Shown here piece by piece: positions 10,090 through 56,405 of a DNA stretch of 64,000 nt. Within the stretch, counting starts at the first letter, position 1. Every line of letters starts with the position of its first letter. Position numbers and translations under genes: made by a program. Below the pieces are notes generated by a model that saw only the letters and a program-made list of their open reading frames with translations, ran no database searches and was not told the DNA's origin. The stretch is taken from the IMG/VR virus record IMGVR_UViG_3300045988_122441. One strand, 5' to 3'. The DNA is from a virus.

Positions 10090-10112
10090 GTAAATAATTT
10101 AATTAGCATGAC
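10090..10112 (-). promoter_or_regulatory. copy 1 of a conserved 23-nt motif (minus sense GTCATGCTAATTAAATTATTTAC); candidate phage promoter
   Basis: Lies 21 nt upstream of the endolysin ATG. Five further copies occur in the same orientation (see findings). Confidence 0.45.
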
Positions 10113-10134
10113 TGTCTAACAAGAAAGACGGGCT

Positions 10135-10530
10135 TTAATTCCCGTCCTTGCTAGTAGCTGCTGTATTTGTTTTTACAATTTCACGCAGAGTATCCAATGC
10201 AGAATCAATCTGCTCGTCAATCCATTCAATCAGAGCTTTCTGATCTACGACTTTAGAGAGAATAGGATATTCCTCATAGATCTGCTTGATTACCTGAGCA
10301 CGTTTGATAGAGCCTGCTTCGCTCCATTCCTGCCAGTCAACCTCTGCATCACTAATCATTTTCAGAATAGTTGTCTGAATCTGTTTCTTAGCGATTTCAA
10401 TCTTTTCATCCTGGCTCTTAGACATATAATCCTGAGTTTTCTTCACGATGCCGATGACAAGACCGATGCATACGAGAATGCTTGTCCAGTTATCGTTCAG
10501 GAGCTGTAAAAATTTCTGTAATCCTTCCAT
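10135..10530 (-). CDS. putative holin (LL-H-like: one N-terminal TM helix plus a helical tail)
   Basis: TM helix WTSILVCIGLVIGIV followed by a charged helical region. Sits just upstream of the endolysin. Confidence 0.5.
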   Translation of the reverse strand: MEGLQKFLQLLNDNWTSILVCIGLVIGIVKKTQDYMSKSQDEKIEIAKKQIQTTILKMISDAEVDWQEWSEAGSIKRAQVIKQIYEEYPILSKVVDQKALIEWIDEQIDSALDTLREIVKTNTAATSKDGN

Positions 10531-10536
10531 AATCTG

Positions 10537-10923
10537 TTACCCCTTTCCTGATTCTGAATTGCTTGTTATTTCCTGTTCTTTCATAGCAGTCTCATAGACT
10601 ATTCCACCTTCTGTGTTCTCAGCCTTTGACTTGCTGTAATATCCGAAGATAACAGGTGCGAGAGAAGCTACAATACCGAGCAGGGCATAAGCCTGAGATA
10701 AATCGCAGAGTCTGTGTGATTCATACATGAACCAGATAGCGATGCAGAAAACAAGAATAACCATAGCCCAGAGAACAAGCTTACTGTTGGAGATACTTCT
10801 GGACTTCTTCTGCCGACCTTTTGCTCGCTCAGCCTTGAGCTTTCTAAGGCGTGCCTTGCTTTCATTCTCATGCTTGATACGCAGCATCTCAGCGTTATAT
10901 TCTTTTTCACTGATATATCTCAT
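10537..10923 (-). CDS. two-TM membrane protein (possible holin/antiholin partner)
   Basis: Basic N-terminus, then LVLWAMVILVFCIAIWFMY and AYALLGIVASLAPVIFGYY. Located in the lysis neighbourhood. Confidence 0.45.
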   Translation of the reverse strand: MRYISEKEYNAEMLRIKHENESKARLRKLKAERAKGRQKKSRSISNSKLVLWAMVILVFCIAIWFMYESHRLCDLSQAYALLGIVASLAPVIFGYYSKSKAENTEGGIVYETAMKEQEITSNSESGKG

Positions 10924-11023
10924 TGTTTCACCACCTTTGCGGCACTATATATAGAGAAAGAAATGATGATGAAAACTATATATAGCATCTTAGCGTTTAT
11001 AAAACGTGAATTTGATATGCATA

Positions 11024-11383
11024 TTACTTTTCATCCGTATAGTAAATAGCTGCTGGTTTGATTGCAGTATCTGTTGCAACATACATATCCGAATCATTTA
11101 TCAGCATTCGCCTAAATACGGTGTATAAAAATGTTTCATCAATACCCGGCTGAGCAATAATCTTGTTTGCTCTTATGCCACGAGCTGCATCACTTGCATA
11201 GGCAAACCGAATCGTTGTCCCGTCTACCAGTTCAATCCAGCAGCCGCAACGTGACTTAATCATTTTGTTAATCATGTCATGCGGGTATGAGTCCAAAACC
11301 TTACTGAACATCTCATCTCTCCATTCAATGTCATGATATACAATCAAAATTCGTTGTCTTAATATTGTAGATAAATCGTTCAT
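11024..11383 (-). CDS. hypothetical protein
   Basis: 119-aa ORF whose start overlaps the stop of the upstream gene (ATGA-type coupling). No motif recognised. Confidence 0.5.
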   Translation of the reverse strand: MNDLSTILRQRILIVYHDIEWRDEMFSKVLDSYPHDMINKMIKSRCGCWIELVDGTTIRFAYASDAARGIRANKIIAQPGIDETFLYTVFRRMLINDSDMYVATDTAIKPAAIYYTDEK

Positions 11384-11823
11384 TTCTTCTCCTTAAATTT
11401 CCATCGATAATACGGCTTTTCTTCTCCAAAAAACCAGTAGCGTTCATAGTCATCAATCACAATCGCACACGCGGATAGTAATACCCACAACAGAGAGAAC
11501 GGCAGACAAATCTGACCAAGAATATTAAATGGCATATTTGAATAATCCCAGATGCCAAGTCCGAGCCACAAATTCAATATGCATCCAGATATGAATTCTC
11601 CAGTTGTTACAATGCACGATCCAATGATTGCTTGCAGCCAAATTGGTGTATCCATTGATAAGACTTCATTAATAAGTCCAATGCATACGCCGCATACACC
11701 TGCAAGAATGAACATACTGATATGGCTATATCCCCTCCACACGATTTCAATCACGTAGTAAATAGACCCCATCACAGTAAACAGCGACAGATATTTAAGG
11801 CATAATGATAGAGCCTTTTTCAT
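11380..11823 (-). CDS. multi-pass membrane protein (about 4 TM; possibly DUF1113-like)
   Basis: 147 aa and almost entirely hydrophobic helices. Family assignment is only a weak recollection. Confidence 0.5.
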   Translation of the reverse strand: MKKALSLCLKYLSLFTVMGSIYYVIEIVWRGYSHISMFILAGVCGVCIGLINEVLSMDTPIWLQAIIGSCIVTTGEFISGCILNLWLGLGIWDYSNMPFNILGQICLPFSLLWVLLSACAIVIDDYERYWFFGEEKPYYRWKFKEKK

Positions 11824-11870
11824 CGTACAACCTCCGTATGTATGCAGAGAGCCGGATAAACCGACTCAGT

Positions 11871-11893
11871 GCATATTATTTAATTAGCTTGAC
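11871..11893 (-). promoter_or_regulatory. copy 2 of the 23-nt motif
   Basis: Minus sense GTCAAGCTAATTAAATAATATGC, 47 nt upstream of ATG 11823. Confidence 0.4.
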
Positions 11894-11896
11894 ACA

Positions 11897-12451
11897 TTAA
11901 GCCTCTGCGTTTGCCTGAGAATACAGCATCTTCAGAACTTCAGACTGATAAGCCTCCGGAATGTCAACGCCGTACTCCACAGCACAAACATCATTGATAT
12001 CAGTCATGCTCTCGATATAGTCTCTCAGAGAGTTAAAGTATGTAGTCTGGAATTCAATGCAGTTCTCCATTGCTGTATTCAGAGCCACTACCTCATCCTT
12101 TGTGTAGAATTTACAAGACTCGCCATCTGCATGATACGGGAGAACCGTGATGCCAGCATTGGCTCTGTCATTCAGCTTAGAAATTTTCAGCTGGTCTGCA
12201 ACTTCAAGACTGAAGTGATGAGATTTCTTGTCAGACAGGGTGATGTCAAATCCCTGTGTGATAACTTCATTGCAGGCAACGCTCATCTCTGCAATCTTTG
12301 CAGCTTTTACATCGTCAATGTTATCGTTTGTTACAACACCGGATTTGATAAGCTGCTCCATAACAGCGCCCTTGATTTTATCTGGCACTGCATCGAATTC
12401 CTTTTCACCATTGTAAACAAGGTCTGTCCAAAAATTGATTAACTGAATCAT
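11897..12451 (-). CDS. hypothetical protein, tail-fibre-associated (DUF4376-like C-terminal half?)
   Basis: 184-aa ORF downstream of the fibre/DGR genes. The resemblance is recalled, not verified. Confidence 0.45.
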   Translation of the reverse strand: MIQLINFWTDLVYNGEKEFDAVPDKIKGAVMEQLIKSGVVTNDNIDDVKAAKIAEMSVACNEVITQGFDITLSDKKSHHFSLEVADQLKISKLNDRANAGITVLPYHADGESCKFYTKDEVVALNTAMENCIEFQTTYFNSLRDYIESMTDINDVCAVEYGVDIPEAYQSEVLKMLYSQANAEA

Positions 12452-12465
12452 ATAACACCCTCCTC

Positions 12466-12738
12466 TTAAATTAATGCGCTCAGCTCAATAATGCACTGTT
12501 TCATTTTTTCTGCTTCTGTCATTTCGCGGATAATGAATCTAGTATGACCATCCTCGCTCCAAATGTTTGTACAGGTCATATCCTTATAATCAACACCGCC
12601 AATATTTACACTGGATAAATTGGCATCAGACAGAATCTCAATATTAACTTCATCATCTGTGATGTAGTTGTTGCCATTCAGTGTAGCGTGAATCTCTGTT
12701 CCGTTTGCGAGGATAATATTGTAAATAGTATTTTCCAT
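12466..12738 (-). CDS. hypothetical small protein
   Basis: 90 aa. GGAGG lies 9 nt upstream of ATG 12738. The start overlaps the 3' tail of the RT gene by 86 nt. Confidence 0.5.
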   Translation of the reverse strand: MENTIYNIILANGTEIHATLNGNNYITDDEVNIEILSDANLSSVNIGGVDYKDMTCTNIWSEDGHTRFIIREMTEAEKMKQCIIELSALI

Positions 12739-13966: not shown

Positions 13967-14061
13967 CGCCTTTGTCTTTTAGCACATTCCTGTGCAAGGA
14001 CAATTTCTCCTTTCTTCGTTTCTTGTATCTGCATATAGCATAATTAAACAAGTGGAAGAAA

Positions 14062-14174
14062 TCGGACGAACGCCATTAGAATTAGACGCGTTGTTGTTGT
14101 TCGCATTGCCGTTGTTGTTCACATTACAGAAGTTAGTCGCAGACCTCACACCACGCAGCCAATAGTTGAAGCGA
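14062..14174 (-). repeat. DGR template repeat (TR)
   Basis: Minus sense GTCGCTTCAACTATTGGCTGCGTGG...AATGGCGTTCGTCCG, rich in AAC codons. Aligns to VR1 (offset exactly 800 nt) and to VR2. Lies 95 nt upstream of the RT start. Confidence 0.9.
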
Positions 14175-14216
14175 CAAACGGCGCAAAACATGCAGAAATT
14201 GCCCTGATTAGTTTCC

Positions 14217-14771: not shown

Positions 14772-14785
14772 TTCCTCCGTATTAA

Positions 14786-14810
14786 CCCACCCACCCGGAG
14801 GTGGGATGGG
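14786..14810 (-). other. GC-rich hairpin downstream of VR1
   Basis: CCCACC-cgga-GGTGGG core with flanking imperfect extension, between the target stop (14844) and the avd start (14771). Could be a terminator and/or a DGR target-recognition hairpin. Confidence 0.4.
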
Positions 14811-14843
14811 ATTAAAGATATTGCATTGTATTTCTTGTCAATA

Positions 14844-15776: not shown

Positions 15777-15791
15777 AGTATATTCCTCCTC

Positions 15792-17693: not shown

Positions 17694-17717
17694 ATATTTT
17701 CACCTCCAGTCTATTAA

Positions 17718-31039: not shown

Positions 31040-32042
31040 CATGTCGGGTATTTCATGGTAAAATTGAATAAAATCTATGGGAGGTATATTTATGGCTTTG
31101 ATAAAATGTCCCGAGTGCGGACAAGATGTGTCTGATAAAGCAATACAATGCATCCATTGTGGATATCCTTTAAATATCCAGAAAGATAGTGCTTATGATA
31201 TTATCTATAATGGATTTGAAAATAATTCATTAAAATACAAGTATCAAGCAAATCTGATAGGATGTATAAGACAACTGCTGAAATTAGATTTAACAACTGC
31301 GAAAATGATTATTGACAACCCACCATATACTCTTTTCCATTCTGTATCAAAAGAACAGGCAGAATGGATTATTACAACATTAAAACCGTTTCAATGCAAT
31401 GTTACTGCAAACGAATCTAATAGCGATATTCAGTCAAATATTGAAATTGATTCTTATATGGCAAACGGATCAACATTGATATGCCCGCATTGTGGTTCTA
31501 ATGAAGTTATAACAGGTCAAAGAGGCTTTTCATTATTAACCGGATTTATAGGCAGTAATAAAACCATCAATAGATGTGGAAAATGCGGATATAAATGGGA
31601 ACCGTAATTTATGTCTTCTTATCGACGCTGACATATGCGTACCATGATTAGAGTGAGAGATAAGTTCTCACTACACGAGGACTATACATTAAAAGTCGCT
31701 ACACTAGGCAGTAGCGGCTCAAAGGGTGGGTAGTCTCTGAGGATGAAGCTGTGAGTCTTCGTCCGGCTGATGTCATCCTATCTGCAGAAATATCTGCGTA
31801 GCACTTAGGCTTACTATCACCATATGCCATCCAATCATTTGTTTCTGCCTTTCGCAACGTTCACGCTTATTGTTTCCAATTACGTTGTAGTATGATTGGT
31901 TTAACCAGTTTCCCAGCAATTACCCCTTTGTGTGATTTGTTTTAAAACGCTCACCCATAGCCTTGGCTCATATCTCCAAAATTGATATGTCCTTGACCAT
32001 GCCGACCTCTGTTACAGATAACCCATGATTTTGGGTCAAGCC
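31040..32042 (-). mobile_element. group I intron in the tape measure gene (catalytic core about 31950-31650; splice sites approximate)
   Basis: Read in minus sense. P-like AAUUGCUGGGAAA. Q-like GCCUAAGUGCUACGCAG. R-like UCAGAGACUAC. S-like GUAUAGUCC. Pairings seen: P3 CAAAGGG (31930-31924) / CCCUUUG (31726-31720); P5 CCAAUCAU / AUGAUUGG; P7 GACUA / UAGUC; P8 CGCUAC / GUAGCG; P9 AGUGAGA / UCUCACU. Confidence 0.7.
31092..31607 (+). CDS. double zinc-ribbon protein with a ribosomal L7/L12 C-terminal-like middle domain, encoded antisense within the intron
   Basis: GGGAGG at 31079-31084, then ATG 31092. CPECG..CIHCG and CPHCG..CGKCG ribbons. Middle segment LIGCIRQLLKLDLTTAKMIIDNPPYTLFHSVSKEQAEWIITTL resembles the L7/L12 CTD. 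Confidence 0.65.
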   Translation: MALIKCPECGQDVSDKAIQCIHCGYPLNIQKDSAYDIIYNGFENNSLKYKYQANLIGCIRQLLKLDLTTAKMIIDNPPYTLFHSVSKEQAEWIITTLKPFQCNVTANESNSDIQSNIEIDSYMANGSTLICPHCGSNEVITGQRGFSLLTGFIGSNKTINRCGKCGYKWEP

Positions 32043-38782: not shown

Positions 38783-38784
38783 GC

Positions 38785-41250: not shown

Positions 41251-41273
41251 GTAAATTATTTAGTTAGCATGAC
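41251..41273 (-). promoter_or_regulatory. copy 3 of the 23-nt motif
   Basis: Minus sense GTCATGCTAACTAAATAATTTAC, abutting the capsid gene SD. Confidence 0.45.
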
Positions 41274-41284
41274 TGACGATTTTT

Positions 41285-41794
41285 TTAGTCAATCTTGATA
41301 ACGTAGTATGTATATCGACCAGCAATCTCAACATCGATAATCTTTCCAACAGTTGTCGCACCGGAAGTTGCGGATGCTGCAACATTCAGTTTTGTACCAG
41401 CTGCAAGCTCTACGATATTTCCCTTTGCAGGAGATGCGAGACCCGTCAGAGCTTCTTTAGTTACAGAGAACATATTTCCAGAATGGAGTCTATATCCTCT
41501 ACAAGCCTTACCAGCCGGGTTGATGAATTCATCCAGGTTGCGGAGTCTTTCATCATACGGTACTTCAGGAGCAGCGATCAGTACGACCTCTCGAATAGGT
41601 GTATCTTTTGCGACATCTTCTCCGAGGAATACCTCGCGCTCACCGTCCATAAGCTCAGAAGCTTTCAGGACACTTCCGTTTTCAATTTCGGTAGCAGTAG
41701 TTTTAGCTGTACCCATGTATTTAACAGACACCAGTTCACTACGAACATCAGTACCAGTCATGTTGTCTGTTCTAACAACGCCATATTTAGCCAT
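41285..41794 (-). CDS. hypothetical head protein (decoration/scaffold-adjacent)
   Basis: 169-aa ORF between the scaffold-like and capsid genes. Confidence 0.4.
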   Translation of the reverse strand: MAKYGVVRTDNMTGTDVRSELVSVKYMGTAKTTATEIENGSVLKASELMDGEREVFLGEDVAKDTPIREVVLIAAPEVPYDERLRNLDEFINPAGKACRGYRLHSGNMFSVTKEALTGLASPAKGNIVELAAGTKLNVAASATSGATTVGKIIDVEIAGRYTYYVIKID

Positions 41795-46883: not shown

Positions 46884-47911
46884 TATTCATCACCATCCTG
46901 ACTTTCTGAGTACGCATCGATCAATAAAGATTCATCGTCCTCATCTTCGTATTCAGGCTTTTCTACTCGAAGTCTATTAATTTCATCCTCATACAACCTG
47001 GTATATCCATTCTTTACACCGCACATTTTGCATATATGCCCCAGCCATGTGAACACGTATTTTTTAATGCGGTTGACATCCTGTAAAGATTTATCAATTT
47101 CAGGTAATGGACGTTTGTTCTCATACCTAAATAACCATACGCCAAGCGGAGTGTTAGCTATTGAAGCATCCAGTTCGTCAGATTTCTTTTGAGCTGGCTT
47201 GAGGTTTAAACTACCAATCAGTGTATTCAGTGAGTTTACGCTCTTGTCAATAGATTTTCCGGCAGCAGCGTCCTTCGATATACTTACTTCAAGATTGCAG
47301 AGCTGTCTCATTAACACGTCGCTACCGATATCATTTCCGCCAGCATCAGAGAAGGCATCTGGAAATTTTGAACTGTAATATTTGCGACGTTGTTCAAGCT
47401 GCTCATACATCTCTTTAGAATACCCAGTTCCCCAAAAGGCAATTACTTCTTGCGGGATATCCGGTTCATCGGCAGTATTTGACTCATCTGCCTCATCTGG
47501 TTCTATATCTTGTGGTTCTGCTGCAACCTGTGTAGTATCAAAAGACCACAGGATGCCCTCGTCGAGCAAAGTATCATCATAGCTTTTACCTGCACATGAG
47601 ACGCTATTGATACGAACAATATACTGTGTCATTAATGATCGCACAGAACTTTTCTTTACTACACTATCAAAAATACTTTCATTCCAGTATAAGTCTAGTT
47701 TACGGCATGTCTGTCTGACCGCCATTTTTGAGTCCTTACATTGTGCGAGATATTGACTATATATTTTGTCAATACACGATCTGCAATACGGGATGTACCC
47801 CAGACCTTTATATAGTTCTCCGTAACTTACAGGGAAAAATCCCTTTCTTTTGGAGTATCCAGTACCGCATGTGGGACAGATTACTTTATCTGTGTTCATT
47901 TCCAAAGCCAT
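46883..47911 (-). CDS. hypothetical protein in the small-terminase position (N-terminal zinc ribbon)
   Basis: CPTCG..CRSC. Acidic linkers. Directly upstream of and coupled to terL. Confidence 0.35.
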   Translation of the reverse strand: MALEMNTDKVICPTCGTGYSKRKGFFPVSYGELYKGLGYIPYCRSCIDKIYSQYLAQCKDSKMAVRQTCRKLDLYWNESIFDSVVKKSSVRSLMTQYIVRINSVSCAGKSYDDTLLDEGILWSFDTTQVAAEPQDIEPDEADESNTADEPDIPQEVIAFWGTGYSKEMYEQLEQRRKYYSSKFPDAFSDAGGNDIGSDVLMRQLCNLEVSISKDAAAGKSIDKSVNSLNTLIGSLNLKPAQKKSDELDASIANTPLGVWLFRYENKRPLPEIDKSLQDVNRIKKYVFTWLGHICKMCGVKNGYTRLYEDEINRLRVEKPEYEDEDDESLLIDAYSESQDGDE

Positions 47912-48375
47912 TATTCATCACCATCCTCTTCGTTAAAATCAGGTGATTCATAGCTGGATAGACGCTCAGCCAAAGAAAGTTCATACATTTTGGCACACAT
48001 CTTTAAATCCTTGCCAGATTCAAACTTTGGTACATACCTGCCAGAGACTTCAACATCTTCATGCGTGACTGGATGTTTATTAGTTCGCGGTTTTCTGTAG
48101 TTTAGAGAGAGAGTACCGAACCCTCTAATAGACACAGACTCACCTCGTTTTAAACTGTCACCAATAACCGCAAGGCAGGTGTCCATCATTGCCTCTACAT
48201 CGTCATATGTAAATAGAACACCTTTATCTGTTTTCTTGACAACAAAGTCTTTTGTATTTCCTTCGTCATCAGATATATGGAAAACCTGCTTTTGGGATGA
48301 GACAGGTTTCCGAATATTATTTTCTCGCATCACGTTTGCAATGCGACGGACTAATTCCTTTCTATTCATATTCAC
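47911..48375 (-). CDS. HU/IHF-family DNA-binding protein with an insertion
   Basis: MNRKELVRRIA.. and IRGFGTLSLNYRKPRTNKHPVTHEDVEVSGRYVPKFESGKDLK match the HU fold signature. Confidence 0.7.
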   Translation of the reverse strand: MNMNRKELVRRIANVMRENNIRKPVSSQKQVFHISDDEGNTKDFVVKKTDKGVLFTYDDVEAMMDTCLAVIGDSLKRGESVSIRGFGTLSLNYRKPRTNKHPVTHEDVEVSGRYVPKFESGKDLKMCAKMYELSLAERLSSYESPDFNEEDGDE

Positions 48376-48395
48376 AATCTCCTTTGTCTCTGTAT

Positions 48396-49424
48396 TTACA
48401 GGTCTCCCAAGCCTTTCTGCTCGGGCGCAACAATATCGCCATCTTTAAAGTACATTCCGATCTGTTCATCAGCATCAATGTCTTTGTACAACTGAACCAT
48501 ATCAGAAGACTCCCATGCGACAATACTCTGGATTACTCCGTCCGGGATTCCGGCTTTCGCAAGACTGGTGGTGAAATAATGTCGCAGGCTATGAATATAG
48601 GCTGGCTTGCCCGATAACCTTGAGAACGTATTTGACCAGCTATTAATGGTTGAGATCTGGATATGTTCTTCTGGATTCTTTGCATCGGGGAACAACCATT
48701 CGCTATCGCCATATTTGTCCAGACGACGATTGCGCCACATATCGAGATATGGGGTGAACTTCTTTGCAAGCGTGTAGCAGTTAATCATCTTGCCACCGCC
48801 TCTGCCTTTAGTTTTGATTGGAGCGCTTTTATACAAAGCCCCACCGCATACCAGTTTATCCTCATCAAAATCTGATATCTTGAATCTACATAATTCGGAT
48901 TTCCTTCTTCCACTGTACATTGCGAGAGCGAGATAGCAGGCTTTTTCATAATCCTTGCGCTCAACAAGCTTCTCCAACAACGCCTCAAGTTCAGAATCCT
49001 CCCATACTGTCTTTTCTCTGACAGGTCTATTCACCGGATTCTCTACTTTGTTGATAATATTTCTGAAATTAGGAAATTCATCATCCAATACGCTTTCAAT
49101 GAAATTGCTCATGGATGAGAGAGCAGCTTTCAACCTTCTGATTCTGGCTGGGCTATTCTCATTTGAATTTAAAAGCCAATTCTGATAAGCAACGATATTT
49201 CGTTTTGTCCAATTCACGAAGAATGTATTGTTGTTATGCTGTAAGCACCACACGAATGCAATCTGAATATCGTTTTCATATCCAGCAATAGTTGTTTCGC
49301 TTCTCTGGATTGAGCGAAGATAGTCCTTGAAGTCTTCAAGTAACTGTGTATTTTCTGGATTCACTTGCGCCAGCAGCTCTGGGCTAGTGATTGAGTTCAT
49401 TTTTGTCTTACGTCCCACGCGCAA
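48396..49424 (-). CDS. second tyrosine recombinase (XerC/D-like)
   Basis: N-terminal SAM-like domain. Catalytic ..RRKSEL.. and IHSLRHYFTTSLAKAGI..VQLY. The true start is probably GTG 49418 or ATG 49400. Confidence 0.85.
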   Translation of the reverse strand: MRVGRKTKMNSITSPELLAQVNPENTQLLEDFKDYLRSIQRSETTIAGYENDIQIAFVWCLQHNNNTFFVNWTKRNIVAYQNWLLNSNENSPARIRRLKAALSSMSNFIESVLDDEFPNFRNIINKVENPVNRPVREKTVWEDSELEALLEKLVERKDYEKACYLALAMYSGRRKSELCRFKISDFDEDKLVCGGALYKSAPIKTKGRGGGKMINCYTLAKKFTPYLDMWRNRRLDKYGDSEWLFPDAKNPEEHIQISTINSWSNTFSRLSGKPAYIHSLRHYFTTSLAKAGIPDGVIQSIVAWESSDMVQLYKDIDADEQIGMYFKDGDIVAPEQKGLGDL

Positions 49425-49449
49425 GTACCTCCTTTGTTATTATTTTGAA

Positions 49450-49532
49450 TGGGAAGTGATGGAGTCGAACCACCCGAGCCGTTAAGCAACTGATTTACAG
49501 TCAGCACCGCTACCTCTACGGGATAACTTCCC
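49450..49532 (-). tRNA. tRNA-Tyr(GUA): tRNA-Tyr (anticodon GUA), class II with a long variable arm
   Basis: Folded by hand. Acceptor GGGAAGU / ACUUCCC plus discriminator A. Anticodon stem GCUGA / UCAGU with loop CUGUAAA. 14-nt variable arm. T arm GGUGG-UUCGACU-CCAUC. CCA is not encoded. Confidence 0.85.
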
Positions 49533-49563
49533 AAATAAAAACCGGAGCATTTTACAGCTCCGG
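49533..49563 (-). terminator. rho-independent terminator
   Basis: CCGGAGC / GCTCCGG stem, followed on the minus strand by TTTTTATTT. Downstream of the phosphoesterase gene. Confidence 0.7.
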
Positions 49564-49572
49564 CTATGTCCG

Positions 49573-50958: not shown

Positions 50959-51103
50959 TTCGATTCTCCTTCGACTCTTGTATTTATAGAACAATCACGT
51001 TCATATATTCCCTTCATACAAGCACCTCATCAAATACCTATATACGGTTGAGTATCAATACGATAAGAGTGGTAGCAAATTTATATCGTGCTAAAAAAAT
51101 AAT

Positions 51104-51889
51104 TTACACACCTAAATTTTTCCTTCGCATGATGTAGTTTACCCGCTGTTGAACGGCTATTTCTGTGGCGCACGCTTTGCAGAATTTCTGTTTCCGTCCT
51201 TTTTCTGGGTCTGTATATTTTACTGTAATACCGCAATTTTCGCATTCAAAGTACGGGTTACGTTTATGCTTTCTATATTTATATTTCATATACTGATACC
51301 CCAGATTGCGAAAATCTGATACCGATAAAGCAACAGGAGAGGAGCCATCTACGAAGCATACACGAACGTTTGTGTTATCAATACGCTTAGAGAATCGGAG
51401 TAACCCAGCATCTTTTAATACGCCGTATAATAAACATTGCCGTTTAATAGATGTATTAATATTTGCAAGAGCCATTATTTCATTATCCTTATTATTTACC
51501 CAGTAATCAGTCTCCGGTGATACAGCATACCAATATTTAGCAAGACACAGAAGAGTAAAGGCTAATCTCTCTAGCTGGACACCATCCAATGACTCGATAA
51601 GCTTCAGCTCATTCTCTGTAATATCGAGTTGGTCAATATCGACTGCTTCATATTTGAAAGCACTGGTTACTGCGTACTCAAGAGCTGCGTCCCATTTTGG
51701 GAGAGAAGCAAGTGGGTCGCATTGTAATAGGAAGATATCCAGTTTCTGACGTACTTCTTTTTTCTTTTCATACCCATTATCTATGTAATATCTCGCAATG
51801 CGACGCAATGTTTCAGATGGTTTCTTTCCAAGTGATTTGGACTGAATCATTTTTTCAGCCCAATCATTTTCTTTTAATACAATACTCAT
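51104..51889 (-). CDS. hypothetical protein with a C-terminal zinc finger
   Basis: 261 aa. CENCG..CKAC. Coupled to the upstream RNAP-like gene. Confidence 0.45.
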   Translation of the reverse strand: MSIVLKENDWAEKMIQSKSLGKKPSETLRRIARYYIDNGYEKKKEVRQKLDIFLLQCDPLASLPKWDAALEYAVTSAFKYEAVDIDQLDITENELKLIESLDGVQLERLAFTLLCLAKYWYAVSPETDYWVNNKDNEIMALANINTSIKRQCLLYGVLKDAGLLRFSKRIDNTNVRVCFVDGSSPVALSVSDFRNLGYQYMKYKYRKHKRNPYFECENCGITVKYTDPEKGRKQKFCKACATEIAVQQRVNYIMRRKNLGV

Positions 51890-54633
51890 TCGTTCACCTC
51901 TAATTTCTTTGATACTATTTTGAATCGTTCACCACAATACTCAATGTCACCATCTGCATCCAGTGTTGGGAAATTAACTGTGTGATTATGGTTTAATAAT
52001 AAATTATGTATAATTTCTGAGCCACACATATTCCAAGCAAATCTTTTGGATGAGCTTTTCTGGTAGCACAGATCCAGAACAATATTGCACAGAGCGGACT
52101 CATTCTGGCAGATAATATCACAGGATTTGCGGAACTCTGCATTCATTTCAGAAAGTTCTGTAAATGCGTCGTACTTGTCGATCTTTTCGCTCTGAGCAAA
52201 TACGGTATAGCTCTGCATTTTTTTGTTGTAGTCTTCATAAAGCTTTTTGATAGCCCTATATTGCGTGGTGGTATAATCCTCAGAAGCATTTTTCATAATC
52301 GTGTAATCAAACTTGATTTTGGAATTATGCTTTCTGATATACCCATCAAACTCTTGCTCGAATCGTTTGCATATTTTGTTCATGACACACTCGCCAGTAC
52401 CTACAGGCATCCGGTAGTCATAATATCTAAGAAAATCAGATTGCCGTTCTGTCAGCTCATCGGCAGGAACCATTCTCAACTCATCAACAGTCATCTGGAA
52501 TTCTCTCAGGCAGTTTCGATTCGTATTTTTTATGTATTGATTATATTGTTTCATGAGAGCTGGGTAGATATATCTCATAAAGTATGGCTTCTTGTCAGCA
52601 ACAATACTTCTATAGAAGTCCCTTAGTTCATCATCCTCGATTTTATTTGCAGCGTGTCTATCGTGCCATGTTCTCGGCATCGGCTTGCAAATAATTCCTT
52701 TCGCCTTGTCGATTGCATTCTGCTGATATAACTGACCGCATCTGATACGATAGGAGAGTGTGTCGTACTCAACACTTCCTTTTGGATAATGAGAACGAAC
52801 CTCGAACATTGATGTAATATAGTTTGTTGTCTGTCCGATGTCATTACCGAAGCTCTCAATATTGGAACGTACAAAATCGTCTTCAGTAGGAATTGTCTTA
52901 GCTGCCTTTCGCTGAGCGCACATAAGAGCCGGAAGCGGTTCTAACTTCTCAACGAGGATTCTATTGTCACTGAGCATGACCAAATCACCGTCAAAGTCCA
53001 TTCCGTTTAATGCAGCAGCTGCGGTGTCCCATGCGTTGAAAATCGTACAGGTCTTCATATGTTGATACCAATAATCAGCATCGGAGCTATGAACGGGATA
53101 TACCAAACGGATGTTATTGTGGCAGGTCATAGGCGCACGAAAACAAGCAAGCTTCTCTGAACCAAAATCTCTCCAGTATTTATTGTAGATTTCTCCAGAT
53201 TTCAACAGACCGGTTACTTCCAATCCAAACATGTTCTGGCAGAGTGCGTATGGATCACCAGACACTATAGAATAATTGCCATGAACTTTAAGTACGCCCA
53301 CTTTAGCTTCATCGATACGATTTTTGATAAGCTGGTATATTGCGTTTTGAACAAACGGGTCATCAATCATACGCTTATCAATCATAATTGCCTTTACAAA
53401 ATCATCATCCAGATTTTCAATATTGGACTCATTCATACCGATGCCTTTTAAAAACAGCAGTGTTTTACGCCAATCACCATGGAGAACGTCTTTGATTTCA
53501 TTCATAGTTGGGGCTATCAGTTCTTCAATCTCATCATCGGATAAATTGTAGCTCTGAATGAACTGATAGTTCAGTGAGTGCTCACTTTCCAATTCTTTTG
53601 GACAGGTCTTTGCGATTCCGAATGTGTATCCGTTGGATAATGAGTTTCGTACATACGCTTCGCAGCTATCATAACTATCCCAGAGCTTTACCATAGAAGT
53701 AGTGAGAATCAATTCTACATCACGCACATCGAAATCATTTCCCCACGCATCTTTGATAATGTATTTTCCTCCGGCAATCTTTTCTGCAAAATCTACATAA
53801 TCAAATGTGAAAGCCATTCCTTTTTCAAATGAGAAGCGGGTATTTGCTCCACTGATTGTATAGTCGAGTCCAAGCTCTTTGCTCCAACGCTCTGCGAGTG
53901 ATGGGAGCATCATTCCGAAACCATCTGATGCATCAAGATCAACCTTTTGCTGTTTCTGTAACTCCATTGTCGGTTCGCCATCGCATTCATCAGTCAGATA
54001 TACAATGTCAGAGAGGAACGAAGTCTCGCAGTCATTTACTACAGCGATTCCTTTCGGGAATGAAACTGGAGTAGAAGCACTACAGGTGAGAGCCTGATAC
54101 GCTTCGAGCTTTGCAGTAACCAGTTCTTTTTCTGGATTTCGTCCATTGGATATTCTGCGATGCAGTTCGTCAATAACCTTTTCGCTTACAAATACGATAG
54201 TGCTGTTCTTGATTCCACCATTGGTTCCGAGCAGGCGTCGATATTTTACGCCATTGATCTGAAAGCCTTTGCAGGCACGATAGTAGTCCTTTTCTTTGTC
54301 AATAATCAGAGTAACATAGTCTGCCTTATACTGAAGCTGATCCAAATCCTCATACAGTTTCTTAATGGCGTGTCTGTTTTTTACGCTGTTTGGAGCAGTT
54401 CTTAAACTGCGAATCTCTTCCTTGATTTTTTTAGCTTCAGCGTCTGCATCTGTGATGTCATTCAGATAATCAATCCAGCGCAATGTCTGGCTGTCCGCAA
54501 GAGATATCACTTCTTCATTCCTTCTTGCTTCCTCGATCGGGAGTGTTAGCCGCCAACGATGTTTACGAAGGCGGCTACTATGTAGCTTATAAATAAATTT
54601 TTGACAAGTAAGTTGCTTGCTAATTTTGAACAC
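51886..54633 (-). CDS. YonO-like single-subunit two-barrel RNA polymerase
   Basis: ACFRAPMTCHNNIRLV resembles the beta-prime NRAPTLH motif. LNGMDFDGDLVM resembles the universal NADFDGD metal-binding loop. 915 aa, similar in size to SPbeta YonO. GTG start with a weak SD. Confidence 0.65.
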   Translation of the reverse strand: MFKISKQLTCQKFIYKLHSSRLRKHRWRLTLPIEEARRNEEVISLADSQTLRWIDYLNDITDADAEAKKIKEEIRSLRTAPNSVKNRHAIKKLYEDLDQLQYKADYVTLIIDKEKDYYRACKGFQINGVKYRRLLGTNGGIKNSTIVFVSEKVIDELHRRISNGRNPEKELVTAKLEAYQALTCSASTPVSFPKGIAVVNDCETSFLSDIVYLTDECDGEPTMELQKQQKVDLDASDGFGMMLPSLAERWSKELGLDYTISGANTRFSFEKGMAFTFDYVDFAEKIAGGKYIIKDAWGNDFDVRDVELILTTSMVKLWDSYDSCEAYVRNSLSNGYTFGIAKTCPKELESEHSLNYQFIQSYNLSDDEIEELIAPTMNEIKDVLHGDWRKTLLFLKGIGMNESNIENLDDDFVKAIMIDKRMIDDPFVQNAIYQLIKNRIDEAKVGVLKVHGNYSIVSGDPYALCQNMFGLEVTGLLKSGEIYNKYWRDFGSEKLACFRAPMTCHNNIRLVYPVHSSDADYWYQHMKTCTIFNAWDTAAAALNGMDFDGDLVMLSDNRILVEKLEPLPALMCAQRKAAKTIPTEDDFVRSNIESFGNDIGQTTNYITSMFEVRSHYPKGSVEYDTLSYRIRCGQLYQQNAIDKAKGIICKPMPRTWHDRHAANKIEDDELRDFYRSIVADKKPYFMRYIYPALMKQYNQYIKNTNRNCLREFQMTVDELRMVPADELTERQSDFLRYYDYRMPVGTGECVMNKICKRFEQEFDGYIRKHNSKIKFDYTIMKNASEDYTTTQYRAIKKLYEDYNKKMQSYTVFAQSEKIDKYDAFTELSEMNAEFRKSCDIICQNESALCNIVLDLCYQKSSSKRFAWNMCGSEIIHNLLLNHNHTVNFPTLDADGDIEYCGERFKIVSKKLEVNE

Positions 54634-54643
54634 CTCATTTCAA

Positions 54644-54666
54644 GTAAATTATTTTATTAGCATGAT
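54644..54666 (-). promoter_or_regulatory. copy 4 of the 23-nt motif
   Basis: Minus sense ATCATGCTAATAAAATAATTTAC, ending 10 nt before the RNAP-like start codon. Confidence 0.4.
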
Positions 54667-54674
54667 TGCACAAA

Positions 54675-54902
54675 TCAATTATTGAACTCATTGATATACT
54701 CACGCCACGCACTTTCAAATTCTGATCGACCATCTTCGACTATTCGCTCTACGACATCATCTGTCAGTAAATCTCCATCAAGAGGATAGAAGTCCTCGCA
54801 TGGTGTTGCCTCGCTGCAGTTTTCTTTATATACACAGTTATTACATTTATGCTTCATTGATTGTATTTCCTCCCTGTACTGTTTCTTCAATCCAATTTTC
54901 AA
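54675..54902 (-). CDS. small Cys-rich hypothetical protein
   Basis: 75 aa with CNNC..C..C. Overlaps the end of the upstream ATPase gene. Confidence 0.4.
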   Translation of the reverse strand: MKIGLKKQYREEIQSMKHKCNNCVYKENCSEATPCEDFYPLDGDLLTDDVVERIVEDGRSEFESAWREYINEFNN

Positions 54903-56094
54903 GCAGATTCCTCATACGTCTGCTCGGTATGTATAAATATATTTCATCTCCATCCCGGATGGCTGATCGCCAGATCCACTGAACCATAATAGACAGAGCA
55001 TACATATCATCGTCAGCCTCTATGCCATGCTTGTGGTAAAATGTCTTTTCACCAACATTCATAAAGAGATTGACCAGATATATCATATAATGTCGGTTCC
55101 TATATTCGTTTGTCGCTTTCATATTAAATCGCAAGAATGACCTCGTATATCCTTTACCACTAATTTTGCATCGGCAGTCATTGAACGTACCCCACATTTT
55201 CTCACCGGCTGGAGCATTTCTCCAAATATTATTAATGCAGTTGTTGACATTATTCTTTAACTGTTCTACATTGTTTTCGTCTCTGCCAAACCAACTCATT
55301 GATAACGCATGATAGCTGTCACCGATATTGTTCATCCTATCATTATCCAGAATATGAATCATATCTTTTAAATGGCTGACATATTCCGGTGTATAGCCAG
55401 GGTAGTCACAGAATCGGTAGTGTCCTGACTCTGTTTTCTGGATACCAATATACTCATATGGAAGCTGGTACATCTCCAGAAAATGATGAAGCGATTGCCC
55501 TTTGAATATGTATGTCAGTATGATTACATCTTTGAATGCCGTGATTAACTCCGGTGGCAATACCCAATAAAAAAGATGTGTGCCAGCACTGTCTTCCATC
55601 TGAATTAACTGACGAACCTTTAAGAATTGCCGCAGCTCGTGATAAAGTCTTCCGTTATAATCTTCTTTGGCAAGATAGTAAGTATCCTCATCTCGAATAA
55701 TCAGCCCAGAGTCAATAGCTAATTGAATGTCATCCGGATGAAAATCATATTTCTCCAGAACATCTACGTTTTCATCAATGATGAGGCGATAGCCATATTC
55801 CCGGATGTCATCCAACATGTCCTCCGTATATCGCTTAAATGCTTGATGCGTGGTTGTGATATTCTTTCCTTGTTTAATAAGAGCAGCGGTATGCTCGCTT
55901 TTCTTAAATCCATACTCTTTTAGCTTGTCACTTGGTTCTACGAAATGCATTGACTTGCATCCATTCTTAATTCGTTCAGCTTCTTCCAAGTATGGTGTGA
56001 TGTATATGAACTTTTCTTCCTTATGTTCATTCATATACGTGATAGCAGCACTGGACTTGCCAGTACCCATGATTGCATCACAAACTTGGATCAT
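54847..56094 (-). CDS. P-loop NTPase (helicase-like)
   Basis: AGGAGG precedes ATG 56094. Walker A MGTGKSS, Walker B LIIDENV, TTHQAF motif. First gene of the leftward array. Confidence 0.55.
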   Translation of the reverse strand: MIQVCDAIMGTGKSSAAITYMNEHKEEKFIYITPYLEEAERIKNGCKSMHFVEPSDKLKEYGFKKSEHTAALIKQGKNITTTHQAFKRYTEDMLDDIREYGYRLIIDENVDVLEKYDFHPDDIQLAIDSGLIIRDEDTYYLAKEDYNGRLYHELRQFLKVRQLIQMEDSAGTHLFYWVLPPELITAFKDVIILTYIFKGQSLHHFLEMYQLPYEYIGIQKTESGHYRFCDYPGYTPEYVSHLKDMIHILDNDRMNNIGDSYHALSMSWFGRDENNVEQLKNNVNNCINNIWRNAPAGEKMWGTFNDCRCKISGKGYTRSFLRFNMKATNEYRNRHYMIYLVNLFMNVGEKTFYHKHGIEADDDMYALSIMVQWIWRSAIRDGDEIYLYIPSRRMRNLLENWIEETVQGGNTINEA

Positions 56095-56165
56095 TTTAAA
56101 CCTCCTTTTTACGATTTCTTTTTGTGATTTTACAACCTAAAAGTTGTAACTCATTTCTTAATCCG

Positions 56166-56178
56166 TTGATTATCAATG
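56166..56178. promoter_or_regulatory. palindromic operator-like site TTGATTATCAATG (copy 1)
   Basis: Identical 13-mer repeated at 56474-56486, inside the divergent control region. Confidence 0.4.
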
Positions 56179-56277
56179 TCTTACATGGGCGTTCCTAACA
56201 ACTATAGAAAAACACCATCTTTGCTTTTGATATAAGGCTGCTTGATAGAGCGTTAAATACACAGCGGATTCAACATT

Positions 56278-56300
56278 GTAAATAATTTAATTAGCTTTAC
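56278..56300 (-). promoter_or_regulatory. copy 5 of the 23-nt motif
   Basis: Minus sense GTAAAGCTAATTAAATTATTTAC, in the divergent control region. Confidence 0.4.
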
Positions 56301-56382
56301 AATCCAAAAATAAAATCTGCAATAAATAAGCAGATCATTTATTTAGCATTATTATACCATTGTTTGCATGGTATGTCAATAA

Positions 56383-56405
56383 GTAAATAATTTAATTAGC
56401 ATGTA
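56383..56405 (-). promoter_or_regulatory. copy 6 of the 23-nt motif
   Basis: Minus sense TACATGCTAATTAAATTATTTAC, in the divergent control region. Confidence 0.4.

What the first reader, a model, noticed from the sequence alone, without database searches (positions are those of the whole stretch)
10090..56405. Conserved 23-nt motif repeated six times in one orientation upstream of minus-strand genes: candidate phage-specific promoter
The minus-sense consensus is (G/T)(T/A)CATGCTAATTAAAT(T/A)ATTTAC. Copies lie at 10090-10112 (before the endolysin), 11871-11893 (before the 11823 gene), 41251-41273 (abutting the capsid SD), 54644-54666 (before the RNAP-like gene), 56278-56300 and 56383-56405 (divergent control region). 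All six share the same orientation as the genes they precede. They end only 10-47 nt from the start codon where one follows directly. No conserved TTGACA-type -35 is part of the motif. This resembles the long, highly conserved promoters used by phage RNAPs or phage sigma factors. The window encodes both candidates: the YonO-like RNAP and a sigma-like protein.
Basis: partly seen in the sequence, partly recalled or inferred. Interest (0 to 1): 0.65.

Follow-up and report, generated by a model that had tools for sequence, protein, structure and literature searches.

The report
Phage-specific promoter motif, likely for its own polymerase
A 23-base sequence repeated in front of replication, polymerase, capsid, lysis and tRNA genes of a large gut phage is most likely the start signal read by the phage's own YonO-type RNA polymerase, an enzyme family for which I found no published promoter sequence.

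Summary
The window holds eight strong copies of (G/A)TCAWGCTAATTAAATWATTTAC, not six, plus one half-site. Simulated sequence never reaches their scores, and all copies lie in the ~8% of non-coding DNA.

In about 60 related phage contigs the motif recurs at the same places. Where a gene follows, it usually ends 0-9 nt before the ribosome-binding site; in two relatives it ends 1-2 nt before a tRNA gene. Position 22 is nearly always a purine. No sigma-A -35/-10 geometry fits. Variants change together within a genome. The capsid copy is a recent ~35-nt insertion.

A near-identical genome has further copies before primase/DNA polymerase III and tRNA-Gln, but none in 25 kb of early genes.

Best reading: a single-block promoter with the start site at its 3' end. 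It is probably read by the phage's YonO-like RNA polymerase in a T7-like programme (P about 0.55; any kind of promoter about 0.8). No start site was mapped, and an unseen phage sigma-like factor is not excluded.

An unexplained conserved module heads the polymerase operon: perfect sigma-A promoter, degenerate motif copy, terminator, good motif copy.

The parts
10090..10112 (-). Motif copy 1, GTCATGCTAATTAAATTATTTAC. It lies 20 nt before the endolysin ATG (10069), and the ribosome-binding site (AAAGGGG) starts 3 nt after the motif.
   Evidence: 33.4 bits. Conserved before the endolysin gene in 4 family loci, one of which has a different upstream gene.
10121..10147 (-). Terminator-like hairpin (GACGGG-N7-CCCGTC plus TTTCTT) that overlaps the stop codon of the 131-aa gene, immediately upstream of copy 1.
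   Evidence: Read directly from the sequence.
11871..11893 (-). Motif copy 2, GTCAAGCTAATTAAATAATATGC. It starts 3 nt after the stop codon of the 184-aa gene and ends 47 nt before the ATG of the 147-aa gene.
   Evidence: 31.1 bits.
11843..11873 (-). Stable hairpin that begins at the last bases of copy 2. If transcription starts at motif position 22, it would sit at the 5' end of the transcript.
   Evidence: -18.6 kcal/mol, z = -3.1.
41251..41273 (-). Motif copy 3, GTCATGCTAACTAAATAATTTAC. It abuts the capsid gene's ribosome-binding site (AAGGAGG).
   Evidence: 31.3 bits. Present only in relatives with at least 98% capsid identity. Relatives at 88-89% have the stop codon, about 8 nt and then the ribosome-binding site, so this copy is a ~35-nt insertion.
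51085..51107 (+). Inverted copy, ATCGTGCTAAAAAAATAATTTAC. It overlaps the stop codon of the 261-aa gene and points antisense into that gene and the RNAP gene.
   Evidence: 26.3 bits. Conserved in relatives whose RNAP is at least 91% identical; sequence context.
54644..54666 (-). Motif copy 4, ATCATGCTAATAAAATAATTTAC. It ends 7 nt before the GAGGTG ribosome-binding site of the RNAP gene.
   Evidence: 31.8 bits. The same placement is seen in relatives down to about 67% RNAP identity.
51886..54624 (-). YonO-like single-chain RNA polymerase gene, the presumed cognate enzyme. The likely start codon is ATT at 54624-54622.
   Evidence: Pfam RdRP 1.4e-14. 40% identity to the YonO homologue of Clostridium phage c-st and 25% to SPbeta YonO. 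ATA/ATT start codon conserved across relatives.
56278..56300 (-). Motif copy 5, GTAAAGCTAATTAAATTATTTAC. It lies just downstream of the terminator and 183 nt before the ATG of the 415-aa YonV_C/helicase-like gene.
   Evidence: 30.0 bits. Part of the conserved module.
56306..56336 (-). Intrinsic terminator: 7-bp stem GATCTGC/GCAGATT followed by a T-run. Its 5' arm is the 3' end of the degenerate copy.
   Evidence: -11.4 kcal/mol, z = -3.0. Hairpins of different sequence occupy the same place in relatives.
56330..56352 (-). Degenerate copy (motif'), ATAATGCTAAATAAATGATCTGC. It starts within the last 2 nt of the sigma-A -10 hexamer, so it covers roughly +1 to +15 of the host-polymerase transcript.
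   Evidence: 24.2 bits. Conserved position in relatives.
56351..56379 (-). Perfect sigma-A promoter: TTGACA, 17 nt, TGgTATAAT.
   Evidence: 12 of 12 matches plus the extended TG. The hexamers are kept while the spacer diverges in relatives.
56383..56405 (-). Motif copy 6, TACATGCTAATTAAATTATTTAC. It ends 3 nt before the -35 hexamer. This copy exists only in the window's own clade.
   Evidence: 27.9 bits.
56707..56729 (-). 5' half-site, GTCAAGCTAATT. It overlaps, on the opposite strand, the -35 hexamer of the sigma-A-like promoter (56725-56753, +) of the 384-aa HTH gene.
   Evidence: 15.5 bits. Conserved in close relatives.

Best explanation
The motif is a single-block promoter of about 23 bp that host sigma-A RNA polymerase does not read. 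Its 5' part (TCAWGCTAAT) would be the recognition element and its AT-rich 3' part (TAAATWATTT) the melting region. Transcription would start at or next to the conserved purine at position 22 (R-C-W).

The enzyme that reads it is most likely the phage's own YonO-like single-chain RNA polymerase (RNAP), giving a T7-like programme:
1. Host sigma-A polymerase fires from the perfect promoter at 56379-56351. Most transcripts stop at the terminator 56336-56306. Read-through yields the first RNAP molecules.
2. The phage RNAP then starts at copies 5 and 4 and amplifies its own operon.
3. It also transcribes the replication genes, tRNA genes and the 47-kb structural/lysis cluster. Internal copies boost the capsid gene, the 147-aa gene cluster and the endolysin gene.

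What is shown: the motif's existence, its placement, its conservation, its geometry relative to ribosome-binding sites and tRNA genes, and the lack of sigma-A geometry. What is inferred: that it is a promoter, where transcription starts, which polymerase reads it, and the feedback loop.
For: (1) Statistics. Eight copies score 24-33 bits, against a maximum of 20.4 in 200 simulations. There are 7 matches against 0.01 expected. All copies lie in the ~8% of non-coding DNA.

(2) Geometry. Among 123 distinct family contexts, the ribosome-binding site starts 0-9 nt after the motif in 50 of the 61 cases where a gene follows. The motif also ends 1-2 nt before tRNA-Gln in L110 and L073, and it heads tRNA arrays in L036, L042, L055 and L029. 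It therefore acts on transcription, not translation, and the start site must lie in or at the end of the motif.

(3) Family logo. Information is confined to positions 2-24. Position 22 is a purine in 107 of 114 instances and position 23 is C or T.

(4) No sigma-70-type promoter on the gene strand at copies 1-3, and no conserved -35. The same phage uses textbook TTGACA-17-TATAAT promoters elsewhere.

(5) Terminators sit just upstream of copies 1 and 5 and of the tRNA-Gln copy. Hairpins start at the motif's end, consistent with 5'-end stabilisers.

(6) Positional conservation. The motif precedes the RNAP gene's ribosome-binding site down to about 67% RNAP identity while the flanks diverge.

(7) Concerted variants within a genome. 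L024 has CAAGATAATTATATAATCT(A/G)T three times. L016, L063 and L052 have their own variants. L047 (61% RNAP identity) has an unrelated motif upstream of its RNAP gene and again about 0.9 kb upstream of its helicase-like gene. This points to a phage-encoded reader.

(8) Gain of the capsid copy as a 35-nt insertion, typical of promoter turnover.

(9) Gene-class logic in a near-identical genome. Strong copies precede primase/DNA polymerase III, tRNA-Gln and another gene. None occurs in about 25 kb of early genes.

(10) The phage encodes a YonO-like RNAP. SPbeta YonO is required for late-gene transcription, and its promoter is still undefined (PMC5467207).

(11) Precedent. The single-chain two-barrel RNAPs of phage P23-45 use conserved motifs at -30 to +1 (PMC10770324).

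(12) The RNAP is among the best conserved neighbouring proteins (67-70% identity) in lineages that keep the canonical motif. The 384-aa HTH protein is 27-45% identical or undetectable there. No sigma-70-family region 2 domain was found in the roughly 65 proteins scanned.
Against: No start site, RNA-seq or binding data exist for this phage. Everything rests on sequence.

In SPbeta, yonO itself and the replication genes do not depend on YonO, so the homology argument covers only late genes.

L007 has an RNAP 98% identical to the window's, yet three of its copies carry a changed 3' half. Either the 3' half is tolerant or another factor reads it.

Motif similarity does not simply track RNAP identity. 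Some clades at 70-78% have variants or no detectable copy.

ATTAAATA inside the motif resembles a '-10-only' element such as T4 TATAAATA (from my own knowledge). Such an element would also place the start near position 23, so a small sigma-like factor is not excluded by geometry.

About 18 kb of the related genome was never seen.

Two copies point antisense to their neighbouring genes.

The more distant YonO-type phage PMBT24 has a sigma-A-like promoter and no such motif before its RNAP gene.
Confidence: 0.55

Rival explanations
1. It is a promoter, but it is read by the host core RNA polymerase. The specificity factor would be phage-encoded: a '-10-only' sigma like T4 gp55, an ArpU/RinA-type late regulator, or the 384-aa two-HTH protein encoded at 56835-57989.
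For: The motif contains -10-like sequence (TAAATT / ATTAAATA) placed so that the start would fall near positions 23-24. The 384-aa gene is transcribed divergently from the control region. It has Sigma70_r4/GerE and HTH_7 domains, which could read an asymmetric bipartite site. A motif half-site overlaps its own -35 hexamer, which looks like autoregulation. In L007 the control-region copies and this side of the genome changed together while the RNAP stayed 98% identical.
Against: There is no sigma region 2 anywhere in the 384-aa protein, even at E up to 10, nor in the roughly 65 proteins scanned. The 384-aa protein has no homologue in GenBank phages. It is 27-45% identical in relatives beyond the closest clade, and it is not detectable in the about 3.4 kb upstream of the module in L035/L055, which keep a canonical motif. 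The conserved block is contiguous and has no 16-18 nt spacer. The AlphaFold model was uninformative, with pLDDT 41.
Confidence: 0.2
2. It is an operator or architectural binding site for a phage DNA-binding protein, not a promoter. It would be an analogue of the SPbeta repeated element (SPBRE) bound by the MrpR repressor, or a site for the Xer-like recombinase or the HU-like proteins.
For: SPbeta has a repeated intergenic element bound by a repressor with a tyrosine-recombinase fold, including a site upstream of yonP-yonO (PMC10516654). This phage encodes a Xer-like protein (48396-49424) and two HU-like proteins. Copies 6 and motif' flank a sigma-A promoter, and the half-site overlaps another one. 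From memory, the 5' half resembles a XerD arm of the dif site; this was not tested.
Against: SPBRE is unrelated in sequence, and at the yonP and yonT sites read here it sits just upstream of, or overlapping, a canonical TATAAT with a 12-nt or longer leader. Most copies here have no sigma-A promoter to regulate, abut ribosome-binding sites or tRNA genes, and follow the direction of the downstream gene. The motif is not palindromic. The Xer-like protein keeps the catalytic R, HxxR, W and Y residues, whereas MrpR has lost them. Copy 6 is specific to the window's clade.
Confidence: 0.12
3. It acts in RNA, as a processing site or translation enhancer in the 5' leaders of a polycistronic transcript.
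For: Inside the window the motif has the same orientation as the genes. It is tightly coupled to the ribosome-binding site, 0-9 nt away.
Against: It also directly precedes tRNA genes. It lies upstream of a promoter with no gene following (copy 6). It occurs antisense to local genes. It often follows terminators. It has no pairing potential of its own.
Confidence: 0.04

Closest known systems
Promoters of phage-encoded single-chain 'two-barrel' RNA polymerases (Thermus phage P23-45 gp96 and gp64; PMC10770324)
   Same: A strongly conserved motif lies immediately upstream of the start site (-30 to +1). It is specific to the phage and sits in front of defined gene classes. The polymerase belongs to the same two-barrel superfamily as YonO.
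   Different: There the start sites were mapped by ONT-cappable-seq and polymerase occupancy by ChIP-seq; here nothing is mapped. The motif sequences are unrelated. P23-45 infects Thermus, and its polymerases serve pre-early and early genes.
T7-type promoters (about 23 bp, contiguous, -17 to +6) and the T7 class II/III programme (from my own knowledge)
   Same: One contiguous block of about 23 bp: an upstream recognition part, an AT-rich melting part, and a purine start at the 3' end. It occurs in front of replication and structural genes but not early genes. The RNAP operon is first reached by host polymerase. Promoters change together with the phage lineage.
   Different: The polymerase here is unrelated to T7 RNAP (two-barrel versus right-hand fold). 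Here the RNAP gene carries its own promoter copy, suggesting autoactivation. This phage is temperate (it has an integrase) and is about 115 kb.
SPbeta P_YonO (Forrest et al. 2017, PMC5467207)
   Same: A homologous polymerase (25% identity) and a syntenic neighbourhood: RNAP, HU-like protein, exonuclease, YonG-, YonF-, YonE- and YonD-like genes. YonO is required for late-gene transcription.
   Different: In SPbeta only one YonO-dependent start site is known, upstream of yonK, and its promoter sequence is undefined. I could not map it (B. subtilis 168 was not among the loci retrieved). The repeats near it turned out to be arms of RNA hairpins. There is no sequence similarity to this motif.
SPBRE, the operator of the MrpR master repressor of SPbeta (PMC10516654)
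   Same: A repeated intergenic element of about 15-25 bp in a related phage type, co-oriented with the downstream genes at the two sites read here, including a site upstream of the RNAP operon.
   Different: The sequence is unrelated. SPBRE overlaps sigma-A promoters of early genes. This motif has no -10 element downstream and abuts ribosome-binding sites and tRNA genes.
Lambda PR'-tR'/Q late switch (from my own knowledge), compared only with the sigma-A promoter/terminator module
   Same: A strong constitutive host promoter is followed within about 40 nt by a terminator, at the head of a very long one-directional operon. A -10-like sequence lies in the initially transcribed region.
   Different: No Q-like protein was identified. 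The repeated motif also occurs at internal sites where no host promoter exists.

Membership tests
Phage-RNAP-specific promoter (T7-like / two-barrel single-chain RNAP class) | One contiguous conserved block of about 18-25 bp immediately upstream of, and including, the start site | tested here: inconclusive
   The contiguous 23-bp block with sharp information boundaries is met. The position of the start site is only inferred, from the 0-9 nt gap to the ribosome-binding site, the 1-2 nt gap to tRNA genes and the purine at position 22.
Phage-RNAP-specific promoter (T7-like / two-barrel single-chain RNAP class) | The genome encodes a cognate non-host RNA polymerase | tested here: met
   YonO-like RNAP at 51886-54624.
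Phage-RNAP-specific promoter (T7-like / two-barrel single-chain RNAP class) | The motif marks a gene class distinct from the genes served by host-type promoters | tested here: met
   Copies precede the RNAP, capsid, endolysin, primase/DNA polymerase III and tRNA genes. No strong copy occurs in about 25 kb of early genes, which include canonical sigma-A promoters.
Phage-RNAP-specific promoter (T7-like / two-barrel single-chain RNAP class) | The promoter sequence co-varies with the polymerase lineage | tested here: inconclusive
   Variants change together within genomes, and an unrelated motif occurs at 61% RNAP identity. The canonical motif spans several deep RNAP clades. L007 has a 98% identical RNAP but altered copies. 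Linkage to other phage genes cannot be separated out.
Phage-RNAP-specific promoter (T7-like / two-barrel single-chain RNAP class) | RNAP-dependent initiation at the motif, in vivo or in vitro | not testable with these tools
   Needs start-site mapping, in vitro transcription or ChIP.
Sigma-A (sigma-70) promoter | -35 TTGACA and -10 TATAAT hexamers 16-18 nt apart | tested here: not met
   No consensus match on the gene strand at copies 1-3. The 9-of-12 matches at copies 4 and 5 are at chance frequency. There is no conserved -35 in the family logo. TTG triplets upstream occur at variable distances.
SPBRE/MrpR operator | Sequence related to SPBRE and overlapping a sigma-A promoter | tested here: not met
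   SPBRE read from SPbeta is ACAAATAYAAAWAATATGTATATAA. It lies just upstream of, or overlapping, a TATAAT hexamer and has no similarity or comparable geometry.
SPBRE/MrpR operator | A catalytically dead tyrosine-recombinase-fold repressor | tested here: not met
   The 342-aa Xer-like protein retains R, HxxR, W and Y in alignment to XerA. It gave no sequence match to an MrpR structure in the PDB.
T4-type late promoter (-10-only TATAAATA, read by gp55) | An 8-bp -10 element without a -35, plus a gp55-like small sigma | tested here: inconclusive
   ATTAAATA at positions 10-17 matches 6 of 8 bases and would put the start near position 23. No sigma-like protein was found in the roughly 65 proteins scanned, but about 18 kb of the genome was not seen. 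The conserved block extends 10 bp further upstream than a -10 element would.

The most novel reading that the evidence does not exclude
The conserved module at the head of the RNAP operon is itself a new kind of switch. A perfect sigma-A promoter transcribes a degenerate motif copy and stops at a terminator, giving a predicted RNA of about 40 nt that is an RNA copy of the promoter's non-template strand. That RNA, or the act of transcribing it, would control the phage RNAP. It could act as a promoter-mimic decoy or guide. Alternatively it could act as an attenuator whose leak sets the threshold of an autocatalytic RNAP loop that commits a temperate phage to lytic growth. A related possibility is that YonO-type RNAPs need a separate specificity subunit, such as the 384-aa protein carrying a sigma-4-like HTH.
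Probability: 0.15. Interest if true: 0.8.

Novelty: new member of a known kind. Interest (0 to 1): 0.58.

Why it matters
YonO-type single-chain RNA polymerases are the minimal relatives of cellular multi-subunit polymerases. How they find promoters was left open in the founding paper, which says further work is needed to determine the promoter sequence and whether YonO needs extra factors (PMC5467207). Full-text searches of the held library found no later definition.

If this 23-bp motif is the cognate promoter, it offers three things. It gives a concrete consensus backed by about 87 distinct natural core variants (114 distinct sequence contexts) for in vitro initiation and structural work. 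It provides a compact orthogonal polymerase/promoter pair for Firmicutes. It also lets the gene-expression programme of an abundant family of ~115-kb human-gut phages be read from sequence alone.

Tried and rejected
1. SPbeta P_YonO comparison. The published start site (B. subtilis 168 position 2225998) could not be placed, because strain 168 was not among the 72 genome loci returned. The primer-extension primers only bracket about 190 nt. A repeat I first took for a promoter (TCATTTATGARGGT) is the 5' arm of two RNA hairpins. Dropped.

2. SPBRE as homologue. Rejected on sequence and geometry.

3. More distant YonO-type phages. Enterocloster phage PMBT24 has an extremely AT-rich control region and a sigma-A-like promoter before its RNAP gene, with no such motif. 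In Clostridium phage c-st the region is broken up by IS elements. Repeat searches in eight genomic YonO loci gave only noise.

4. Is the 384-aa protein a sigma factor? Pfam finds only region 4/HTH matches, PDB sequence search finds nothing useful, and the AlphaFold2 model on a shallow alignment was unusable at pLDDT 41.5, so no fold search was run.

5. Sigma-A reading of the motif. Candidate -10 elements inside the motif lack a -35 at any constant spacing.

6. Relaxed motif scan of IMG/VR (GCTAANNAAATNATTTAC). It was useful only for finding extra copies in the sister genome.

7. Palindrome or iteron reading. The TAATTAAATTA pseudo-palindrome is not kept in copies where W = A. The copies are dispersed over at least 100 kb rather than clustered.

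8. Literature search for the motif string found only an unrelated herpesvirus paper.

Full report
1. WHAT THE WINDOW IS

The window is part of a large phage or prophage of a Firmicute, organised like SPbeta.
- A 48-kb minus-strand cluster (7590-56094) encodes a YonV_C/helicase-like protein and a YonO-like single-chain RNA polymerase (RNAP). The RNAP matches Pfam RdRP, is 40% identical to the Clostridium phage c-st homologue and 25% to SPbeta YonO.
- The same cluster then encodes an exonuclease, a tRNA-Tyr, a Xer-like recombinase, an HU-like protein, YonG-, terminase-, portal- and YonD-like proteins, the capsid protein, tail proteins and an endolysin.
- Plus-strand genes flank this cluster. On one side are ClpP, PhoH, NrdD/G, dUTPase and an integrase. 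On the other, after a 740-bp divergent control region, are early genes starting with a 384-aa two-HTH protein.
- No near-identical GenBank phage exists. IMG/VR holds many relatives, including a 114.8-kb sister genome about 96% identical in DNA.

The 21-mer consensus with up to 3 mismatches gives 7 matches against 0.01 expected.

A position weight matrix (PWM) built from distinct family instances gives eight hits of 24-33 bits and one 15.5-bit half-site. Composition-matched simulations average 0.12 hits at 15 bits or more and never exceed 20.4 bits.

The two additional strong copies are:
- a degenerate copy at 56330-56352 (-).

All copies lie in non-coding DNA, although a crude gene call makes the window 92% coding.

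3. ANATOMY

The family logo was built from 114 distinct instances.
- It carries information only at positions 2-24: T-C-A-W-G-C-T-A-A-T-T-A-A-A-T-W-A-T-T-T-R-C-W.
- Position 22 is a purine in 107 of 114 instances. Position 23 is C or T.
- A loose T-rich tract lies 6-12 nt upstream. Nothing is conserved downstream.
- The motif is not palindromic.
- It is squeezed into tiny spacers: stop codon, 3-12 nt, motif, 0-9 nt, ribosome-binding site.

Among 123 distinct contexts, the ribosome-binding site starts 0-9 nt after the motif in 50 of the 61 cases where a gene follows.

The motif also ends 1-2 nt before a tRNA-Gln gene in the sister genome and in a 93% relative. It heads tRNA arrays in four other lineages. 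This excludes a translation-level role. If the motif is a promoter, the start site must lie at its 3' end.

Terminators immediately precede copies 1 and 5 and the tRNA-Gln copy. Stable hairpins begin at the motif's last bases at copy 2 and in L036, as expected for 5'-end stabilisers in Firmicutes.

4. NOT A HOST-TYPE PROMOTER OR AN SPBRE-TYPE OPERATOR

The consensus scan finds no sigma-70-like promoter on the gene strand at copies 1-3. The 9-of-12 matches at copies 4 and 5 occur at chance frequency. The logo has no -35.

The phage does use textbook sigma-A promoters elsewhere. One is TTGACA-17-TGgTATAAT at 56379-56351. Another is a 10-of-12 promoter for the 384-aa gene.

The SPbeta repeated element (SPBRE) that binds the MrpR repressor was read from the SPbeta sequence. 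It is unrelated, and at the two sites read it lies just upstream of, or overlapping, a canonical -10 with a longer leader. The window's Xer-like protein keeps its catalytic residues, unlike MrpR.

5. COMPARATIVE EVIDENCE

Fifty-eight loci encode RNAPs 50-99% identical to the window's.
- In relatives down to about 67% identity, the motif sits directly before the RNAP gene's GAGGTG ribosome-binding site, while the flanks diverge.
- Variants change together within a genome. L024 has CAAGATAATTATATAATCT(A/G)T three times. L016, L063 and L052 have their own versions. The 61% clade (L047) has an unrelated motif upstream of its RNAP gene and again about 0.9 kb upstream of its helicase-like gene.
- The reader of the motif is therefore phage-encoded.
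- On an RNAP tree the canonical motif occurs in several deep clades, so it is ancestral.
- In those clades the RNAP (67-70% identity) and the Xer-like protein are the best conserved neighbours. The helicase-like protein and the exonuclease fall to about 36%. The 384-aa HTH protein is 27-45% identical or undetectable.
- The capsid copy exists only in relatives with at least 98% capsid identity. Relatives at 88-89% have the stop codon, about 8 nt and then the ribosome-binding site, so this copy arose as a ~35-nt insertion.
- The endolysin copy travels with the endolysin gene even when the upstream gene differs.

6. GENOME-WIDE PICTURE

I walked the sister genome by fetching loci around successive proteins.
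- About 25 kb of early plus-strand genes have no strong copy. These include NAD-salvage genes, RNA repair genes, ligases and a reverse transcriptase. One weak 15.6-bit copy abuts a ribosome-binding site.
- Further on there are four strong copies: one before tRNA-Gln, one before a DnaG-like primase followed by DNA polymerase III alpha, one before another plus-strand gene, and one antisense copy next to a PemK/MazF-like gene.
- The motif therefore marks a non-sigma-A promoter class that serves replication, RNAP, tRNA, structural and lysis genes on both strands. This is T7-like class II/III logic, not merely 'late minus-strand genes'.

7. WHICH POLYMERASE?

In favour of the YonO-like RNAP:
- it is present;
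- its SPbeta homologue is required for late transcription, and its promoter is still undefined;
- other single-chain two-barrel phage RNAPs use conserved motifs at -30 to +1;
- the block is contiguous, with an upstream GC-containing part, an AT-rich part and a purine start;
- the RNAP is conserved in step with the motif;
- no sigma-70-family region 2 was found in the roughly 65 proteins scanned.

Against, or unresolved:
- nothing is mapped;
- L007 combines a 98%-identical RNAP with altered control-region copies;
- a '-10-only' factor would fit the geometry;
- part of the genome was not seen;
- PMBT24, a more distant YonO-type phage, lacks any such motif.

I put the probability that it is a promoter of some kind at about 0.8, and that the YonO-like RNAP reads it at about 0.55.

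8. A CONSERVED MODULE THAT REMAINS UNEXPLAINED

At the head of the RNAP operon, nearly all relatives share the same order of elements (folding):
- a perfect sigma-A promoter;
- 2-12 nt later, a lineage-specific degenerate motif copy, often ending in CTGC;
- a hairpin of varying sequence plus a T-run;
- a good motif copy;
- the first gene of the operon.

Host polymerase should therefore make an RNA of about 40 nt that carries the motif sequence and then terminate. The simplest reading is an attenuator that lets only a trickle of host transcription reach the RNAP gene. Copies 5 and 4 would then close a positive-feedback loop. Promoter occlusion or a regulatory small RNA are alternatives.

The inverted copy downstream of the RNAP gene could provide antisense negative feedback. 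All of this is inference.

9. VERDICT

The finding is real. The promoter interpretation is the best explanation and is considerably strengthened. The polymerase assignment is probable but unproven.

The motif is a new member of a known kind, phage-polymerase-specific promoters, for a polymerase family whose promoters I could not find described.

Noticed in passing
window 54622-54633: The RNAP gene appears to start at a non-AUG codon: ATT here and ATA or ATT in relatives, 6-7 nt after a conserved GAGGTG ribosome-binding site. The GTG that the ORF finder takes as the start is part of that site. This suggests deliberately weak or regulated translation of the polymerase.
   Followed up: partly
window 58646-58718 (+): Rfam RAGATH-16 RNA (89.8 bits, gathering threshold 65.6) in the early plus-strand region.
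   Followed up: no
window 49449-49533 (-): tRNA-Tyr(GTA) between the exonuclease gene and the Xer-like gene. Here it is preceded by a terminator-like hairpin rather than the motif. In relatives the same position holds arrays of up to five tRNAs headed by the motif.
   Followed up: partly
window 48396-49424 (-) and 5878-7080 (+): Two tyrosine recombinases. One is a 400-aa integrase. The other is a 342-aa Xer-like protein inside the structural-gene cluster with intact catalytic residues (R, HxxR, W, Y). In the L035 lineage a third recombinase-family gene of 274 aa is the first gene after the motif.
   Followed up: partly
window 47911-48375 (-) and 62213-62494 (+): Two HU/IHF-family DNA-binding proteins, one in the late cluster and one among the early genes. 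SPbeta has YonN at the comparable late position.
   Followed up: no
window 126-5555 (+): A block of auxiliary genes: ClpP-like protease, PhoH, anaerobic ribonucleotide reductase NrdD with its activase, a PTH2 peptidyl-tRNA hydrolase and a dUTPase. It contains no motif copy.
   Followed up: no
window 41251-41285 versus L187-L194: The capsid-proximal motif is a lineage-specific insertion of about 35 nt between the stop codon of the upstream gene and the capsid ribosome-binding site. It is an example of a small regulatory cassette being gained.
   Followed up: yes
L435 9070-9991 (sister genome, outside the window): A PemK/MazF-like toxin gene is preceded by a 134-aa gene whose 3' end carries a motif copy pointing antisense into it. 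This could be late antisense control of a toxin-antitoxin-like pair.
   Followed up: no
L417 16701-17855; L434 and L435 (sister genome, outside the window): The early region encodes a reverse transcriptase (RVT_1) and an NAD-salvage set (nicotinamidase-like, NAPRTase, NAD synthase, NADAR, Macro). It also encodes RNA-repair genes (T4-type RNA ligase, a kinase-like AAA_33 protein, Thg1-like) and a DNA ligase. These look like counter-defence genes.
   Followed up: no
L001 7100-8850 (SPbeta, yonN-yonK gap): The 1.7-kb non-coding gap where YonO starts transcription contains long-range hairpins with similar arms (CGGATAATAGTCATTTAT ... ATAAATGGCTATTATCGG). It also has an Rfam DUF3800-VIII hit at 7410-7475. 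It looks like a large structured RNA.
   Followed up: partly
window 31077-31607 (+): A lone 176-aa plus-strand ORF sits inside the otherwise uniformly minus-strand structural cluster.
   Followed up: no
L007 580-2370: This relative has an RNAP 98% identical to the window's, but its helicase-like gene is only 79% identical and three control-region motif copies have a changed 3' half. This indicates recombination within the control region.
   Followed up: partly
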